Shown: one piece after another, positions 15,048 through 18,763 of the stretch
Layout: each line of letters begins with the position of its first letter
How positions within the stretch are numbered: the stretch's first letter is position 1
From: Myxococcota bacterium
GTDB taxonomy: Bacteria > Myxococcota > JACRCW01
Direction: 5' to 3'
Length of the DNA: 64,000 nucleotides
NCBI GenBank assembly: GCA_040752415.1
Contig: JBFMGU010000015.1
Span: 6,458 to 70,457 of the forward strand
Position numbers and translations under genes: made by a program
The notes under the pieces: model-generated
What the model was told of the DNA's origin: nothing
What the model saw: only the letters and a program-made list of their open reading frames with translations
The model's database searches: none

Positions 15048-15296
15048 GATCCGGCCTCCTCTCACGTGGTCCTACCTGTGAGCAGGAAGCGTGCCCGGGG
15101 CCTGCGCAAAGGGCTTCCGAGGGTTGTCCGGTGGGATGTCCTGGGGCGCGTGTCATCGTGGACGCACGGTGTGGACGCCGGGCTTCACCGGGATGCACCC
15201 ACGGCGGATTGCACGGGGCACACATCTGCCGCTACGACCAGGGTCCGGTCCCGCGGCGAGAACCTCCGTCGGGACGCATTGCGACAGGAGCTTGTC

Positions 15297-15572
15297 ATGG
15301 CCGTGAACGTCAGGATTCCCACCCCGCTGCGCAAGTACACCGCCGACAAGGAGACGGTGTCGGTCAGCGCCAGCAACGTGGGGGAGCTGCTCCAGAACCT
15401 GGAGAAGGCGGCCCCCGGCATCAAGGAGCGGCTGGTGGATGAGTCCGGCAACGTGCGCCGCTTCGTCAACATCTACGTGCGCGACGAGGACATCCGTTTC
15501 CTGGACGGCGTCAAGACCGCGCTGAAGGATGGCGACGAGGTCAGCATCGTCCCCGCCATTGCCGGCGGCTGA
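15297..15572 (+). CDS. cysO: MoaD/ThiS-family sulfur-carrier protein CysO
   Basis: This 91-aa protein ends in GlyGly. The motif RFVNIYVRDEDIRF...GDEVSIVPAIAGG closely matches mycobacterial CysO. It lies 13 nt upstream of cysM. Confidence 0.85.
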   Translation: MAVNVRIPTPLRKYTADKETVSVSASNVGELLQNLEKAAPGIKERLVDESGNVRRFVNIYVRDEDIRFLDGVKTALKDGDEVSIVPAIAGG

Positions 15573-15584
15573 GCTCCCCGCAGC

Positions 15585-16505
15585 ATGCAGTACGCCCCCC
15601 TCAAGCCGCGGCGGCCGCTGGCGAGCATCCTGGATGCCGTTGGCAACACGCCGCTCATCCGGTTGCGCAGCATTGAGCGGAGCGCGCCGCACAGCCGCAT
15701 CTACGCCAAGGCGGAGTTCCTCAACCCCGGCGGAAGCGTGAAGGACCGGCCCGCGTTGCAGATGGTGCAGGAGGCGGTGGCCGACGGGCGGCTGACCCGC
15801 GACCGGATCCTCATCGACTCCACCAGCGGCAACACCGGCGTGGCCTACAGCCTGGTGTGCGCGGCCATGGGCTACCGTTGCACGCTGGTGATGCCCGCCA
15901 ACGTGAGCCAGCCGCGCAAGGACATCACGCGCGCGTTTGGGACGGAGCTGGTGTTCTCCAGTGAGCTGGAGGGCAGCGACGGCGCCATCATGCTGGTGCG
16001 CAAGATGGTGGCGGAGGAGCCGGACCGGTACTTCTTCTGCGACCAGTACGGGAATCCGGGAAACCCGCGCGCCCATGAGCTGGGCACGGGCCCGGAGATC
16101 CTGCGCGACTGCCCGGACGTCACGCACTTTGTGGCCGGCGTGGGGACCACCGGCACGGTGATGGGAACCAGTCGCGCGCTCAAGAAGTATGACCGCAGGA
16201 TCCGCTGCGTGGCGCTGCATCCGGATGACGCCATGCACGGGCTGGAAGGGCTCAAGCACCTGGCCAGCTCCATTGTGCCGCGCATCTGGGACGCCGCCAC
16301 GCTGGATGAGCACCTCACCATCACCACCGATGAGGGCTGGGACATGGCGGACCGCCTGGCGCGCGAGGAGGGCCTGATGGTGGGCCACTCCGCGGGAGCC
16401 AACGTGGCGGGCGCGGTGCGGGTGGCGCGCGCGAACCCGGGCGCCGTGGTGGTCACCGTGCTCTGCGACGGAGCAAGCCGGTACCTGCCGGTGCTGCGCT
16501 GGTGA
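15585..16505 (+). CDS. cysM: Cysteine synthase CysM (CysO-thiocarboxylate dependent type)
   Basis: The PLP motif NPGGSVKDRPA is present, with the GNTG and GTGGT loops. It is adjacent to cysO, as in the actinobacterial mec-cysO-cysM locus. Confidence 0.85.
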   Translation: MQYAPLKPRRPLASILDAVGNTPLIRLRSIERSAPHSRIYAKAEFLNPGGSVKDRPALQMVQEAVADGRLTRDRILIDSTSGNTGVAYSLVCAAMGYRCTLVMPANVSQPRKDITRAFGTELVFSSELEGSDGAIMLVRKMVAEEPDRYFFCDQYGNPGNPRAHELGTGPEILRDCPDVTHFVAGVGTTGTVMGTSRALKKYDRRIRCVALHPDDAMHGLEGLKHLASSIVPRIWDAATLDEHLTITTDEGWDMADRLAREEGLMVGHSAGANVAGAVRVARANPGAVVVTVLCDGASRYLPVLRW

Positions 16506-16546
16506 GGGGTGGCGGGGGGGTTCACGAGTTCCCACAAAAGGGAGTC

Positions 16547-16589
16547 AGAAGACAGAAGTCAGAAGTCAGAAGTCAGAAGTCAGAAGGTG
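16547..16589. repeat. Tandem heptamer (AGAAGTC)n with nested hairpin
   Basis: Four perfect AGAAGTC copies are flanked by degenerate copies. The last copy forms a 9-bp stem, GTCAGAAGG with CCTTCTGAC at about 16615-16623. The loop contains an inner hairpin, GCGTC-gcggg-GACGC. Coordinates are plus or minus 1. Confidence 0.75.
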
Positions 16590-16867
16590 CTGACCGCTGA
16601 GCGTCGCGGGGACGCCTTCTGACTGCTGACTTCCTCTTCGGAACTCCCGCCAATCCAGGAGAAATCCGTTGCATTGCGGGTGGCGTTCTTGCCCGCGCTG
16701 ACGTGCGTCGTTATCAGTCATCACTGCAACAGGGCAGAACAGACCGGGTGCCACCGAGCAGGAACCTTCCGGTCGACCTTGTCCCCTCTCACACTTTGCA
16801 TGAGTGGCGTCCCGGGCACGCGCAGCGCGCGCCCCGGAGAGGTGTTGTTCCTGCAGACGGAGAGCAC

Positions 16868-17167
16868 ATGGCCCGCACGAGCACCAAGGGCGGCAAGAAG
16901 AGGTCCAGCGGAAGAAAGACCGCGTCCCGGAAGACCAGCACGCGCACCGCGCGCACCACCAGGAAGGCCACCGGCCGCAAGTACGGCGCCAAGGCCAAGA
17001 GCAAGGTGGGTCAGACCATGAAGGAGTACAAGCGTGGCGAGCTCACCAGCGGCCGGGGCGCCAAGGTCAAGGGCCGCAAGCAGGCCGTGGCCATTGGGCT
17101 GAGCAAGGCGCGCAAGGCCGGCGCCAAGGTCCCCGCGCGGGGCGGCCGGGGCAAAAAAAAAACGTGA
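16868..17167 (+). CDS. Small Lys/Arg-rich basic protein (histone-like/DUF-type)
   Basis: The start MARTSTKGGKKRSSGRK is internal to ORF 16703..17167. The motif KEYKRGELTSG...KQAVAIGLSKARKAG is conserved. The gene ends GKKKT-stop across an A10 run. Confidence 0.65.
   Translation: MARTSTKGGKKRSSGRKTASRKTSTRTARTTRKATGRKYGAKAKSKVGQTMKEYKRGELTSGRGAKVKGRKQAVAIGLSKARKAGAKVPARGGRGKKKT
17153..17162 (+). repeat. A10 homopolymer / A_AAA_AAA slippery site
   Basis: Ten consecutive A in a roughly 69% GC genome encode KKK plus the first A of Thr, immediately before the stop. The run overlaps the candidate GTG start of the downstream ORF. Confidence 0.9.
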
Positions 17168-17490
17168 CTGAGGCGGGGGTCTTCGCGCCCGGCACGCCGC
17201 TGACCAAGGAGCAACCGGAGCGCGAGGCCCAGGCGGCCGCCGCCATTCCCACGCCGCCGGCGCGTGAGGTGGTGGAGGTGCCGGAGCGGGAGGTTGGCGG
17301 CGAGGAGAAGGGGCGCCCCGCGCCCATGCGGGCGGCGCGCAACCTGGTGGATGACGTGGGGCACGCCGTCATGGACACGCCCACGCGGGTGATGGGCTAC
17401 GCCATGCAGATGGCGGACTGGATTGGCGGGAGGATTGCGCGCGCGGGGCGGAACCTGCCACGCCTGCCCAGGCTCCCGCTGCGCCGGTGA
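17164..17490 (+). CDS. Hypothetical protein (possible C-terminal extension of the basic protein via -1 frameshift)
   Basis: The frame-1 ORF is open from the A-run to 17490 with very strong GC3 bias. A GTG codon overlaps the upstream stop as GTGA. There is no independent ATG near the 5' end. Confidence 0.4.
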   Translation: MTEAGVFAPGTPLTKEQPEREAQAAAAIPTPPAREVVEVPEREVGGEEKGRPAPMRAARNLVDDVGHAVMDTPTRVMGYAMQMADWIGGRIARAGRNLPRLPRLPLRR

Positions 17491-17506
17491 CGACGGAAGC
17501 ACGCCC

Positions 17507-18646
17507 TCACAACGCCACCAGGCCGCGCTCCACGAATGCGTGCACGATGCGCATGACGTCGGCCTCCGGGATGGGGCTGGTCTGGATGAGCTGCGCCACG
17601 TTGCGCTGGCCATCAATGCGCTCCAGCACGTAACGCTCCTTGCTGGTGAACATCACGCGCGCCAGGTCACGACGTGACGCCAGCAGCCTGGGCACCGCCT
17701 CCCGCGCAATGGTCACCCGCGACTCCACCCGCCATTCATCCGCGCCGTAGGTGCTCATCACCGCCAACGCCTCGGTGTGGTTGGGGTCCGCCTCCAGGAT
17801 GCGTCGCGCCTTCGCCACCGCTTCGTGCACGCGTCGCGCGGCCAGAAGCTCCCGCAGTTGCGTGGAGGCATCCTTCACCGGGGCCAGGCGCTGGGAGGGC
17901 TCGGTGACGTCGTTCCAGCCCTCCTCCTCGCTCAGCACCTCCTCCGTGGGCGGGAGCACCCGCAGCGCGCCGCGCTTCACCAGCTCGAAGATGCGGACGA
18001 AGAGATAGAAGTCCAGCATCCGCGTCTCCAGCGCCAGCTCCGCCAACGTGCGCATGCCCGTGGACAGCTCCACCAGGCGCAGGTCCGTGGTGTTGAGATT
18101 CACCGGGATGGCGCCGTTGACCTCCACGCGGTGCCGCGCGGTGGGCAGCACCCGACGCATCTCACTCCACATGTTCGCCCGGCTCTGCGCCTCGCTGTGC
18201 ACGTCCTGCAACGAGATGGACGTGGGCGCGTCGAGTTCGGTGTTGCGCGTGACGCTGGTGTCCAGCTCCAACGTGCCGGTGCGCCACTCCAGCGCGTCCA
18301 GCACGCACTCGCGCGTCTTGAAGTTGAGCACGCGGTTCAGCCGCTCCGTGTCCAGCAGTCGGCTGCGGACCAGCAGCATGCCCAGCGGCGTGGTGGTTCC
18401 GGCCTGCGCCTGCAGTGCCAGCCGGAGGTGATCCTCCTTCACGTAGCCGTAGTTGAGCAGCAGCTGGCCCAGCTTCTCCCGGCCGTCCGTGCTGGTGGCC
18501 TGCCTGATGATGCCGTCCTGCAGCTGGATCTCCTTGCGCACGTCGCCACGCTCAAGCCGGAGGCGGCCCGTGGTGCGGCAGCGCGAGAGCGTGAGCAGCA
18601 GCTCCGACAGCGGCAGCACGTCCAGGTCACCCTTGAGGTTTCCCAT
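17507..18646 (-). CDS. DUF4388 (PATAN-domain) protein
   Basis: The N-terminus MGNLKGDLDVLPLSELLLTLSRCRTTGRLRL is characteristic of DUF4388. This gene is divergent from the HAD gene. Confidence 0.7.
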   Translation of the reverse strand: MGNLKGDLDVLPLSELLLTLSRCRTTGRLRLERGDVRKEIQLQDGIIRQATSTDGREKLGQLLLNYGYVKEDHLRLALQAQAGTTTPLGMLLVRSRLLDTERLNRVLNFKTRECVLDALEWRTGTLELDTSVTRNTELDAPTSISLQDVHSEAQSRANMWSEMRRVLPTARHRVEVNGAIPVNLNTTDLRLVELSTGMRTLAELALETRMLDFYLFVRIFELVKRGALRVLPPTEEVLSEEEGWNDVTEPSQRLAPVKDASTQLRELLAARRVHEAVAKARRILEADPNHTEALAVMSTYGADEWRVESRVTIAREAVPRLLASRRDLARVMFTSKERYVLERIDGQRNVAQLIQTSPIPEADVMRIVHAFVERGLVAL

Positions 18647-18763
18647 GGCTCTTTCCCGGGGCCGCGACGACGTGCCCGGCACGAGGGTGGTTCCGGGACG
18701 AACTCTGGGTCAAGTGCCCGGTTGGCGCCGTTGTTACACCCGCGGGGAAGACGGAGGTGGTCC

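What the first reader, a model, noticed from the sequence alone, without database searches (positions are those of the whole stretch)
17140..17490. A10 slippery run (A_AAA_AAA) at the 3' end of a Lys-rich basic protein gene would fuse it by -1 frameshift to a downstream ORF
The 100-aa basic protein gene (16868..17167) ends GGC AAA AAA AAA ACG TGA. Ten consecutive A residues are extremely unusual at about 69% GC, and they form a perfect X_XXY_YYZ heptamer identical in kind to the dnaX site. A -1 shift, whether ribosomal or transcriptional, reads ...KKK-N-VTEAGVFAPGTPLTKEQ... through a 108-codon frame-1 ORF (to 17490). That ORF has a strong GC3 coding signature but no good start of its own; only a GTG overlaps the upstream stop. 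The arrangement predicts two isoforms, a short basic protein and a basic N-terminus plus acidic/Pro-rich C-terminal extension. Alternatively it predicts length-variable A-tract phase variation.
Basis: seen in the sequence. Interest (0 to 1): 0.6.

Follow-up and report, generated by a model that had tools for sequence, protein, structure and literature searches.

The report
A10 run at overlapping gene junction
A run of ten A's, very unusual in this GC-rich genome, sits at the four-base overlap between a small basic protein gene and a lineage-specific orphan gene, so polymerase or ribosome slippage would fuse the two, but the orphan also has an ordinary start codon and nothing shows the fusion is selected.

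Summary
A10 lies at 17153-17162 and is the only A/T run longer than 5 in the 64 kb window. It is made by the last three Lys codons of a 99-aa DUF6496 gene (16868..17167); the other 18 Lys codons in that gene are AAG. A -1 shift, or an A8/A11/A14 transcript, gives a 207-aa, 22 kDa fusion with the ORF 17164..17490.

That ORF is truly coding. Its codon-usage margin is typical of real genes, and the coding signal changes frame exactly at the junction.

- The ORF has a start: GTG 17164 overlaps the TGA stop as GTGA. This layout occurs at three other gene pairs in the window and at three other DUF6496 loci. NCBI annotates the two genes separately.
- No dnaX-type stimulator is present.
- The DUF6496 proteins examined (120 listed hits, 80 genomic loci) are short, with K/R tails and no such extension. 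None has an A-run of 9 or more.
- The downstream ORF has no homologue anywhere searched, and no syntenic locus was found, so conservation cannot be tested.

Most likely these are two coupled genes. The A10 would, by known RNA polymerase behaviour, give a minority fusion product through transcriptional slippage. Whether that product is programmed is open. Interest is moderate to low.

The parts
16868..17167 (+). DUF6496 gene. It encodes a 99-aa, pI 12 protein with a histone-H1-like K/R/S/T-rich N-terminus, the DUF6496 domain and a K-rich tail ending GRGKKKT*. NCBI accession MEW5848097.1.
   Evidence: Pfam PF20106, E = 1.4e-15 and 57.8 bits against a cut-off of 24. The exact 99-aa protein is annotated at NCBI. 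An SD-like GGAGAG lies 5 nt before the ATG. The alignment shows family members ending shortly after GAKVP with K/R tails.
17153..17162 (+). A10 homopolymer, made of three AAA Lys codons plus the first base of ACG. It contains the 0-frame heptamer A_AAA_AAA at 17155-17161.
   Evidence: It is unique in the window and shuffles expect 0.03. Window AAA usage is about 5%. All 18 other Lys codons of the gene are AAG.
17164..17167 (+). GTGA stop/start overlap. The GTG start of the orphan (17164-17166) overlaps the TGA stop of DUF6496 (17165-17167).
   Evidence: Read directly from the sequence. NCBI uses this start. Three other 4-nt overlaps occur in the window, and three in DUF6496 loci elsewhere.
17164..17490 (+). 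Orphan gene in the -1 frame, 108 aa. It has an acidic, Pro-rich and probably disordered N-half (pI 4.6) and a basic helical C-half (pI 11.8). NCBI accession MEW5848098.1, hypothetical protein AB2A00_04760.
   Evidence: Codon-usage margin is 0.31 per codon, 0.33 for the N-half and 0.23 for the C-half. The coding signal switches frame at about 17132-17156. No homologue was found in the 5.8 billion-protein search, the 1.84 billion-representative HMMER search, the metagenome scan, Pfam, NCBIfam, PHROGs or PDB. AF2 on the single sequence gives pLDDT 70 with helices at 16-26, 53-71 and 73-96.
17177..17230 (+). Imperfect GC-rich hairpin downstream of the A-run. It is probably not a frameshift stimulator.
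   Evidence: The stem starts 15 nt after the heptamer. MFE is -32.1 kcal/mol against -28.8 +/- 3.2 for shuffles (z = -1.0).

Best explanation
Two separate, co-transcribed genes overlap by the four bases GTGA: a 99-aa DUF6496 basic protein and a lineage-specific 108-aa orphan. Each is translated on its own. The orphan is made by termination-reinitiation, or by direct initiation at GTG 17164 in an unusually unstructured, A-rich region. The A10 tract formed by the last three Lys codons is real. By the known behaviour of bacterial RNA polymerases on runs of 9 or more A's, it should yield a minority of transcripts with A11 (also A8 or A14). Those encode a 207-aa DUF6496-orphan fusion of 22 kDa. A9 or A12 transcripts change only the last few residues of DUF6496. 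Ribosomal -1 slippage on A_AAA_AAA may add a little. The fusion is therefore a physically expected side product, and it is tolerated because the tract lies 5 nt from the stop codon. There is no evidence that it is a selected, programmed isoform.

Shown: the anatomy, the coding status of both ORFs, the rarity of the tract, and the absence of stimulators and of homologous fusions.

Inferred: the slippage itself, its rate, and translational coupling.
For: - The GTGA overlap is annotated as two genes by NCBI.
- 4-nt overlaps recur in the window and after DUF6496 genes elsewhere, at L017, L052 and L064, without A-runs.
- The start region has a mean unpaired probability of 0.62. That ranks 4th of 50 starts, and internal coding controls give 0.33 +/- 0.12 with a maximum of 0.61.
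- Only about 35% of crudely called starts in the window have an SD core, so SD-less initiation is common here.
- The 120 listed of 448 DUF6496 hits are 55-117 aa, and family members end in K/R tails such as KKK, KKKS and RKKK. GRGKKKT* is therefore a normal family C-terminus.
- No homologue of the orphan lies next to any of the 80 DUF6496 loci.
- There is no PRF stimulator and no Rfam element.
- For slippage: T. thermophilus dnaX has an A9 and about 50% altered product (PMC1088944). C. rodentium tssM1 has an A11 just before a stop and shows 20-25% transcriptional frameshifting with A10-A15 mRNAs (PMC4256274). Iterated AAA codons let ribosomes slide (PMC4363877).
- Products by tract length were computed.
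Against: - Codon choice is strikingly non-random. AAA is used three times exactly at the junction, while the 18 other Lys codons of the gene are AAG and genomic AAA usage is about 5%. The chance is roughly 1e-4 per KKK triplet.
- Accessibility of the start does not explain this. An AAG-AAG-AAG version is predicted to be just as open, 0.59 against 0.62.
- Runs of 9 or more A's are normally selected against in coding DNA (PMC1088944, PMC4066793), so its retention at the one place where a shift enters a real coding frame hints at use.
- No SD core precedes the GTG.
- Everything rests on a single MAG sequence.
Confidence: 0.55

Rival explanations
1. Programmed transcriptional slippage. The A10 is maintained by selection so that a set fraction of transcripts (A11, A8) encodes a functional DUF6496-orphan fusion alongside the two separate proteins, as in C. 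rodentium tssM1 or Shigella mxiE.
For: - The A10 is extremely rare in a 68.6% GC genome and the AAA codons are confined to the junction.
- The tract lies immediately before the stop, and the -1 frame is truly coding from the junction onward.
- AAA is not needed for start-site accessibility.
- Precedents exist with A9-A11 runs (PMC1088944, PMC4256274).
Against: - No single-frame fusion exists among the DUF6496 proteins examined, and the orphan has no homologue at all.
- In tssM1 and mxiE the fused product matches an intact protein elsewhere, unlike here.
- No conservation can be shown.
- The orphan has its own canonical start, so a fusion is not needed to express it.
- Any ATGA/GTGA-overlapping pair is automatically in a -1 relationship, so the frame match is not extra evidence.
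Confidence: 0.25
2. dnaX-type -1 programmed ribosomal frameshifting on A_AAA_AAA is the main route to the fusion.
For: - A perfect 0-frame heptamer allows full re-pairing of two tRNA-Lys(UUU).
- AAA is a rare codon here and may be decoded slowly (inference).
- The 0-frame stop lies one codon downstream.
- An IS cluster with A_AAA_AAA is a proven frameshifter in E. coli (PMC4066793).
Against: - There is no SD-like stimulator upstream.
- The hairpin spacer is 15 nt rather than about 5-9, with z = -1.0.
- The proven A_AAA_AAA case relies on a stem-loop (PMC4066793).
- On a 10-A run, transcriptional slippage cannot be separated from PRF and is expected to dominate (PMC1088944, PMC4256274).
Confidence: 0.07
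3. The tract length is miscounted in the MAG consensus, or it varies within the population. The true gene could be a single 207-aa ORF (A11 or A8), or the tract could be A9 or A12.
For: - It is the longest homopolymer in the window and so the base call most prone to indel error.
- There is a single MAG, with no second copy in any collection.
- At least one DUF6496 homologue from another MAG looks frameshifted (L011).
Against: - The rest of the window shows intact long ORFs (up to 1305 aa) and no broken genes at C6, G6 or G7 runs.
- With A10, DUF6496 ends like its relatives and the GTGA overlap is canonical.
- An A11 reading would create an architecture not seen in any DUF6496 protein examined.
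Confidence: 0.08
4. DNA-level phase variation. Replication slippage toggles the tract between separate-gene and fused-gene states.
For: Long mononucleotide tracts are hypermutable (PMC1088944 discussion). Tract lengths A8, A11 and A14 give the fusion and the others do not.
Against: - Contingency tracts typically sit near the 5' end or in the promoter so that they switch a gene on or off (my own knowledge). This one sits at the last codons and switches nothing off.
- No population data exist.
- The neighbours are housekeeping-like (cysO/cysM, HAD, DUF4388), not surface or restriction genes.
Confidence: 0.05

Closest known systems
Citrobacter rodentium tssM1 (A11) and Yersinia pseudotuberculosis tssM3 (A9) transcriptional frameshifting (PMC4256274)
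   Same: A poly-A tract built from AAA Lys codons lies just upstream of a stop codon. Extra A's in the mRNA carry translation into the downstream frame and give a longer second product. No RNA structure or SD stimulator is needed.
   Different: In tssM1 the two halves together match an intact, conserved TssM, so the long form is clearly the functional protein and it was shown experimentally. Here the downstream ORF is an orphan with its own start codon, no DUF6496 protein examined is fused to anything like it, and nothing has been measured.
Thermus thermophilus dnaX (A9 transcriptional slippage) and E. coli dnaX (A_AAA_AAG -1 PRF) (PMC1088944)
   Same: A homopolymeric A or Lys-codon slippery site within a coding sequence gives two products from one gene.
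   Different: The dnaX shifts give a truncated product (gamma), and the E. coli site has an upstream SD-like element and a downstream stem-loop. Here the shift gives an extension and neither stimulator is present.
Ordinary translationally coupled gene pairs with ATGA/GTGA 4-nt overlaps
   Same: The genes are on the same strand, the start codon overlaps the upstream stop, and the downstream gene is in the -1 frame. Three other pairs in this window and three other DUF6496 loci show this layout.
   Different: Those pairs have no homopolymer. Here the last three codons of the upstream gene form A10, against strong codon bias.
IS-element orfA/orfB recoding on A-runs (IS3 and IS1 families; PMC1088944, PMC4066793)
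   Same: Two overlapping ORFs in a 0/-1 relationship have an A-rich slippery motif in the overlap, giving OrfA and an OrfAB fusion.
   Different: The context is not a mobile element and neither protein resembles a transposase. In IS3- and IS1-type elements orfB usually lacks efficient initiation of its own (my own knowledge).

Membership tests
-1 programmed ribosomal frameshift site (dnaX / IS3 type) | X_XXY_YYZ slippery heptamer in the 0 frame | tested here: met
   A_AAA_AAA at 17155-17161, in phase with the DUF6496 frame.
-1 programmed ribosomal frameshift site (dnaX / IS3 type) | Stimulatory RNA structure about 5-9 nt downstream of the heptamer | tested here: not met
   The only hairpin (17177-17230) starts 15 nt downstream. 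Its z-score is -1.0, and 30 of 200 shuffles fold as well.
-1 programmed ribosomal frameshift site (dnaX / IS3 type) | SD-like element about 10-14 nt upstream of the heptamer | tested here: not met
   The upstream sequence is CGCGGGGCGGCCGGGGC, with no GGAG, GAGG or AGGA core.
-1 programmed ribosomal frameshift site (dnaX / IS3 type) | Motif and overlap conserved among orthologues | not testable with these tools
   No orthologous locus was found in the genome or metagenome collections.
Programmed transcriptional slippage site (Tth dnaX, mxiE, tssM1) | Run of 9 or more A or T in the coding sequence | tested here: met
   A10 at 17153-17162. The threshold is taken from PMC1088944.
Programmed transcriptional slippage site (Tth dnaX, mxiE, tssM1) | A +/-1 change in run length joins two ORFs that are both coding | tested here: met
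   A8, A11 and A14 give 206-208 aa fusions. Both frames have gene-like codon usage up to and from the junction.
Programmed transcriptional slippage site (Tth dnaX, mxiE, tssM1) | The joined product corresponds to a protein encoded in one frame in other organisms, or the tract is conserved | tested here: not met
   The 120 listed of 448 DUF6496 hits are 55-117 aa. ORFs at the 80 genomic loci end in K/R/S tails only and have no A-run of 9 or more. The orphan has no homologue.
Programmed transcriptional slippage site (Tth dnaX, mxiE, tssM1) | Heterogeneous run length in mRNA and a detectable second product | not testable with these tools
   This needs RNA-seq or RT-PCR and MS or Western blot from the organism or a reporter.
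Translationally coupled overlapping gene pair (ATGA/GTGA) | Same strand, with the start codon of the downstream gene overlapping the upstream stop by 4 nt | tested here: met
   GTG 17164-17166 and TGA 17165-17167. NCBI annotates this start.
Translationally coupled overlapping gene pair (ATGA/GTGA) | The downstream ORF is truly coding from that start | tested here: met
   Sliding-window codon margins of 0.24-0.41 from 17156 onward. The -1 frame upstream of the junction scores -0.60.
Translationally coupled overlapping gene pair (ATGA/GTGA) | Ribosome-binding determinant: an SD, or an unstructured A-rich region | tested here: inconclusive
   There is no SD core. The -20..-1 region is highly accessible, 0.62 and rank 4 of 50. 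Whether that suffices is untested.
Phase-variable contingency locus | Tract-length polymorphism among strains or reads | not testable with these tools
   Only one copy of this sequence exists in the collections.
Phase-variable contingency locus | Tract placed so that length changes switch the gene on or off (5' coding region or promoter) | tested here: not met
   The tract lies in the last four codons. The non-fusing tract lengths (A7, A9, A10, A12, A13) all leave a 98-101 aa DUF6496 protein.
DUF6496 (PF20106), upstream gene | Pfam match above the gathering score, with the conserved KYG...RKQAVAIGLSKARKAGAKVP core | tested here: met
   57.8 bits against a cut-off of 24. 23 invariant columns are shared with 16 homologues.

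The most novel reading that the evidence does not exclude
A deep-branching Myxococcota lineage maintains an A10 tract at a GTGA gene junction as a programmed transcriptional-slippage site. One small operon would then yield three products in a fixed ratio: a nucleic-acid-binding-like DUF6496 protein, an orphan helical protein, and their fusion. This would be a case in which a slippage site joins two independently translatable genes instead of rescuing a split one.
Probability: 0.25. Interest if true: 0.5.

Novelty: new member of a known kind. Interest (0 to 1): 0.35.

Why it matters
If the fusion is real and selected, it would add a cellular, non-mobile example of slippage-based recoding in a very GC-rich and poorly sampled phylum. 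It would also give a first functional handle on DUF6496, a widespread family with no known function, by pointing to a physical partner. If it is only a tolerated accident, as I think more likely, it shows that slippery homopolymers can persist at the extreme 3' end of genes, where frame errors cost little. It also warns that any ATGA/GTGA-overlapping pair looks 'fusable by -1'. Either way the knowledge gain is modest, because poly-A tracts before stop codons are an established recoding device.

Tried and rejected
   - The orphan found only itself in the 5.8 billion-protein search, in the exhaustive HMMER search of 1.84 billion representatives and in a metagenome tblastn scan.
   - The adjacent DUF4388 gene found nothing in the 185,579-species genome set. 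Its best protein homologues are only 33-38% identical and are not syntenic.
   - CysM-anchored metagenome loci (up to 64% identity) keep the cysO-cysM pair but lack DUF6496, the orphan and DUF4388.
   - An exact look-up of the orphan's contig returned nothing.

2. The idea that the DUF6496 family favours AAA codons in its K-tail was rejected. AAA makes up 35% of tail Lys codons against 30% in the body in high-GC loci, p = 0.16.

3. The idea that AAA codons were chosen to keep the orphan's start site unstructured was rejected as an explanation for the codon choice. An AAG version is equally open. The region is nevertheless unusually accessible.

4. A terminator or promoter role for the A/T run is not supported. 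No terminator-like or sigma-70-like site lies in 16400-17700 on either strand.

5. No known RNA family was found.

6. An antisense ORF, 17011..17364 (-), briefly out-competed the two genes in my crude GC3 gene finder. The codon model rejects it, with margins of -0.03 overall and -0.37 over the orphan.

7. Function prediction for the orphan gave nothing from Pfam, NCBIfam, PHROGs or PDB. The AF2 single-sequence model is only moderately confident (pLDDT 70), so I ran no fold search.

8. No conserved downstream partner of DUF6496 exists. The neighbours in 80 loci are unrelated to each other.

Full report
**What is there**

The window is 68.6% GC. At 16868..17167 (+) lies a 99-aa gene whose product matches Pfam DUF6496, E = 1.4e-15 and 57.8 bits against a cut-off of 24. 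The identical protein is annotated at NCBI as 'MAG: DUF6496 domain-containing protein [Myxococcota bacterium]', MEW5848097.1.

The gene ends GGC AAA AAA AAA ACG TGA. This gives ten consecutive A's at 17153-17162.
- This is the only A run of 6 or more in the window.
- It is one of only three A/T runs of 5 or more.
- An A8 pattern is expected 0.03 times in dinucleotide-preserving shuffles.
- In 25 confident genes of the window, AAA makes up about 5% of Lys codons.
- Within the DUF6496 gene, the 18 other Lys codons are all AAG.

**The downstream ORF is a real gene that begins at the junction**

The ORF 17164..17490 is in the -1 frame relative to DUF6496.
- Its GC by codon position is 0.78/0.56/0.92, the pattern of true genes here.
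- A codon model trained on 25 long genes of the window gives it a margin of 0.31 nats per codon over the best of the five alternative frames. Its N-half scores 0.33 and its C-half 0.23. Real-gene 54-codon chunks score 0.33 +/- 0.11 and none is below 0.
- Sliding windows show the coding signal leaving the DUF6496 frame and entering the -1 frame at about 17132-17156. The -1 frame upstream of the A-run scores -0.60.
- The antisense ORFs over this stretch are rejected by the same model.

So the first 35 codons, which lie upstream of any internal start, are translated. Translation must therefore enter this frame at or just before 17164.

**Two ways into that frame**

(a) GTG at 17164-17166 overlaps the TGA stop (17165-17167) as GTGA.
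- This is the commonest stop/start overlap of coupled bacterial genes (my own knowledge).
- NCBI annotates exactly this 108-aa protein, MEW5848098.1, AB2A00_04760.
- Three other same-strand pairs in the window overlap by 4 nt.
- Among 80 DUF6496 loci from other genomes, three (L017, L052, L064) have ATGA or GTGA overlaps with unrelated downstream genes and no A-run.
- There is no SD core before the GTG. However, only about 35% of my crudely called starts in the window have one.
- The 20 nt before the GTG have a mean unpaired probability of 0.62. That ranks 4th of 50 start regions and is above all 69 internal coding controls (0.33 +/- 0.12).

(b) A -1 event in the A-run.
- The 0-frame heptamer A_AAA_AAA (17155-17161) allows perfect re-pairing.
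- Alternatively, an mRNA with A11, A8 or A14 reads ...GRGKKK-N-VTEAGVF... and gives a 207-aa, 22.2 kDa, pI 11.6 fusion.
- A9 and A12 transcripts change only the last few residues of DUF6496.

**Is it a dnaX-like PRF site?**

Only the heptamer matches.
- No SD-like element lies upstream.
- The one downstream hairpin (17177-17230) starts 15 nt after the heptamer and is no more stable than shuffled sequence, z = -1.0.
- Rfam finds nothing relevant.
- In the E. coli survey, the proven A_AAA_AAA case needs a stem-loop. AAAAAAA is depleted in all frames, and the authors suggest transcriptional slippage or a high indel mutation rate as possible reasons (PMC4066793).

Transcriptional slippage needs none of these signals.
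- In many bacteria, selection against A/T runs becomes evident at nine nucleotides (PMC1088944).
- T. thermophilus dnaX has an A9 and gives about 50% altered product (PMC1088944).
- C. rodentium tssM1 has an A11 just before a stop codon. It gives 20-25% frameshifted product, with mRNAs carrying 10-15 A's (PMC4256274).
- Iterated AAA codons also let ribosomes slide (PMC4363877).

If the sequence is right, some fusion product is the physically expected outcome. RNA polymerase is the more likely culprit.

**Is the fusion selected?**

- The orphan finds only itself in the 5.8 billion-protein search, in an exhaustive HMMER search of 1.84 billion representatives and in a metagenome scan.
- It has no match near any of the 80 DUF6496 loci and no paralogue in the window.
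- The adjacent DUF4388 gene has only 33-38% identical, non-syntenic homologues.
- CysM-anchored relatives (up to 64% identity) keep the cysO-cysM pair but lack the DUF6496-orphan pair.

At family level the evidence goes against a conserved recoding device.
- The 120 listed of 448 DUF6496 hits are 55-117 aa.
- Family members end a few residues after GAKVP in K/R-rich tails (KKK, KKKS, RKKK). GRGKKKT* is therefore a normal C-terminus.
- None carries an orphan-like extension.
- The longest A-run in the tails of 43 high-GC homologues is 7, and AAA is not enriched in the tails (35% against 30%, p = 0.16).
- Downstream neighbours are unrelated to each other.

Against a purely accidental tract, three AAA codons stand exactly at the junction where every other Lys codon is AAG. 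Start-site accessibility does not explain this, because an AAG-AAG-AAG version is predicted to be equally open, 0.59 against 0.62. This residual oddity is what keeps the programmed reading alive. The -1 relationship of the two frames is not extra evidence, because every ATGA/GTGA-overlapping pair has it.

**Sequence error**

A10 is the longest homopolymer in the window and the sequence is a single MAG, so a miscount cannot be excluded. Three points argue that A10 is correct.
- The rest of the window shows intact ORFs up to 1305 aa, with no breaks at C6, G6 or G7 runs.
- With A10, the DUF6496 protein ends like its relatives.
- An A11 reading would create an architecture not seen in any DUF6496 protein examined.

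**Verdict**

Most likely (0.55) this is an ordinary pair of translationally coupled genes, a DUF6496 protein and an orphan. Their junction happens to carry a truly slippery A10. A minority 22-kDa fusion is then expected through transcriptional slippage, and it is tolerated because the tract lies 5 nt from the stop.

| Rival | Probability |
|---|---|
| Programmed slippage of the tssM1/mxiE kind | 0.25 |
| Tract-length error or polymorphism | 0.08 |
| dnaX-type ribosomal PRF as the main route | 0.07 |
| Phase variation | 0.05 |

If real, it would be a new member of a known kind. Interest is moderate to low (0.35), because nothing beyond the tract itself indicates function and the mechanism has close precedents.

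The orphan itself remains uncharacterised.
- Its N-half is acidic and Pro-rich (pI 4.6) and its C-half is basic (pI 11.8).
- The C-half is predicted to form a helical hairpin, with helices at 53-71 and 73-96 (AF2 single sequence, pLDDT 70).
- It has no hit in Pfam, NCBIfam, PHROGs or PDB.

Noticed in passing
window 16540-16648 (repeat at 16543-16586): A 7-nt tandem repeat (AGTCAGA x 6.3) forms the 5' arm of a long, very stable hairpin. MFE is -61 kcal/mol, z = -5.65, and 0 of 200 shuffles fold as well. It lies between the cysM stop (16505) and the DUF6496 gene. Rfam gives only weak sub-threshold hits of the miRNA-precursor type. Its function is unknown; it could be a terminator, an attenuator or a REP-like element.
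   Followed up: partly
window 15279..15572 and 15585..16505 (+): A ThiS/MoaD-like (CysO-type) small protein ending in GG is followed 12 nt later by a CysM-like PLP enzyme (PALP, E = 2e-63). The pair is conserved in metagenomic relatives (CysM up to 64% identity), but their downstream genes differ from this window.
   Followed up: partly
window 17507..18682 (-): A DUF4388/PatA_N protein carries an MshEN-like c-di-GMP-binding motif (NCBIfam NF053729, 38.8 bits against a cut-off of 38). It is convergent with the orphan, and the two stop codons lie 16 nt apart. Its best homologues are only 33-38% identical and sit in a different gene context, which shows how isolated this Myxococcota lineage is.
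   Followed up: partly
L017, L052, L064 (DUF6496 stop near locus position 1700-1745): Three other DUF6496 genes overlap a co-oriented downstream gene by 4 nt (ATGA or GTGA). The partners are unrelated; L064, for example, is a 313-aa multi-pass membrane protein. None of these junctions carries a long A-run.
   Followed up: yes
L011 (Candidatus Eremiobacteraeota MAG MFD03399.bin.1.137), about 1501-1940: This DUF6496 homologue loses the conserved GGKVP ending and runs on for about 60 unrelated residues. It looks like a frameshift, possibly a homopolymer error in that assembly.
   Followed up: no
L036 (Polyangia MAG), 1744-2358: Downstream of this DUF6496 gene lies a 204-aa protein with AKPK repeats (basic N-half) and a strongly acidic C-half. 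Its charge layout loosely recalls the hypothetical fusion here, but there is no sequence similarity to the orphan.
   Followed up: no
window 16514-16520: A G7 run, the longest G/C homopolymer in the window, lies just after the cysM stop and ahead of the heptamer-repeat hairpin.
   Followed up: no
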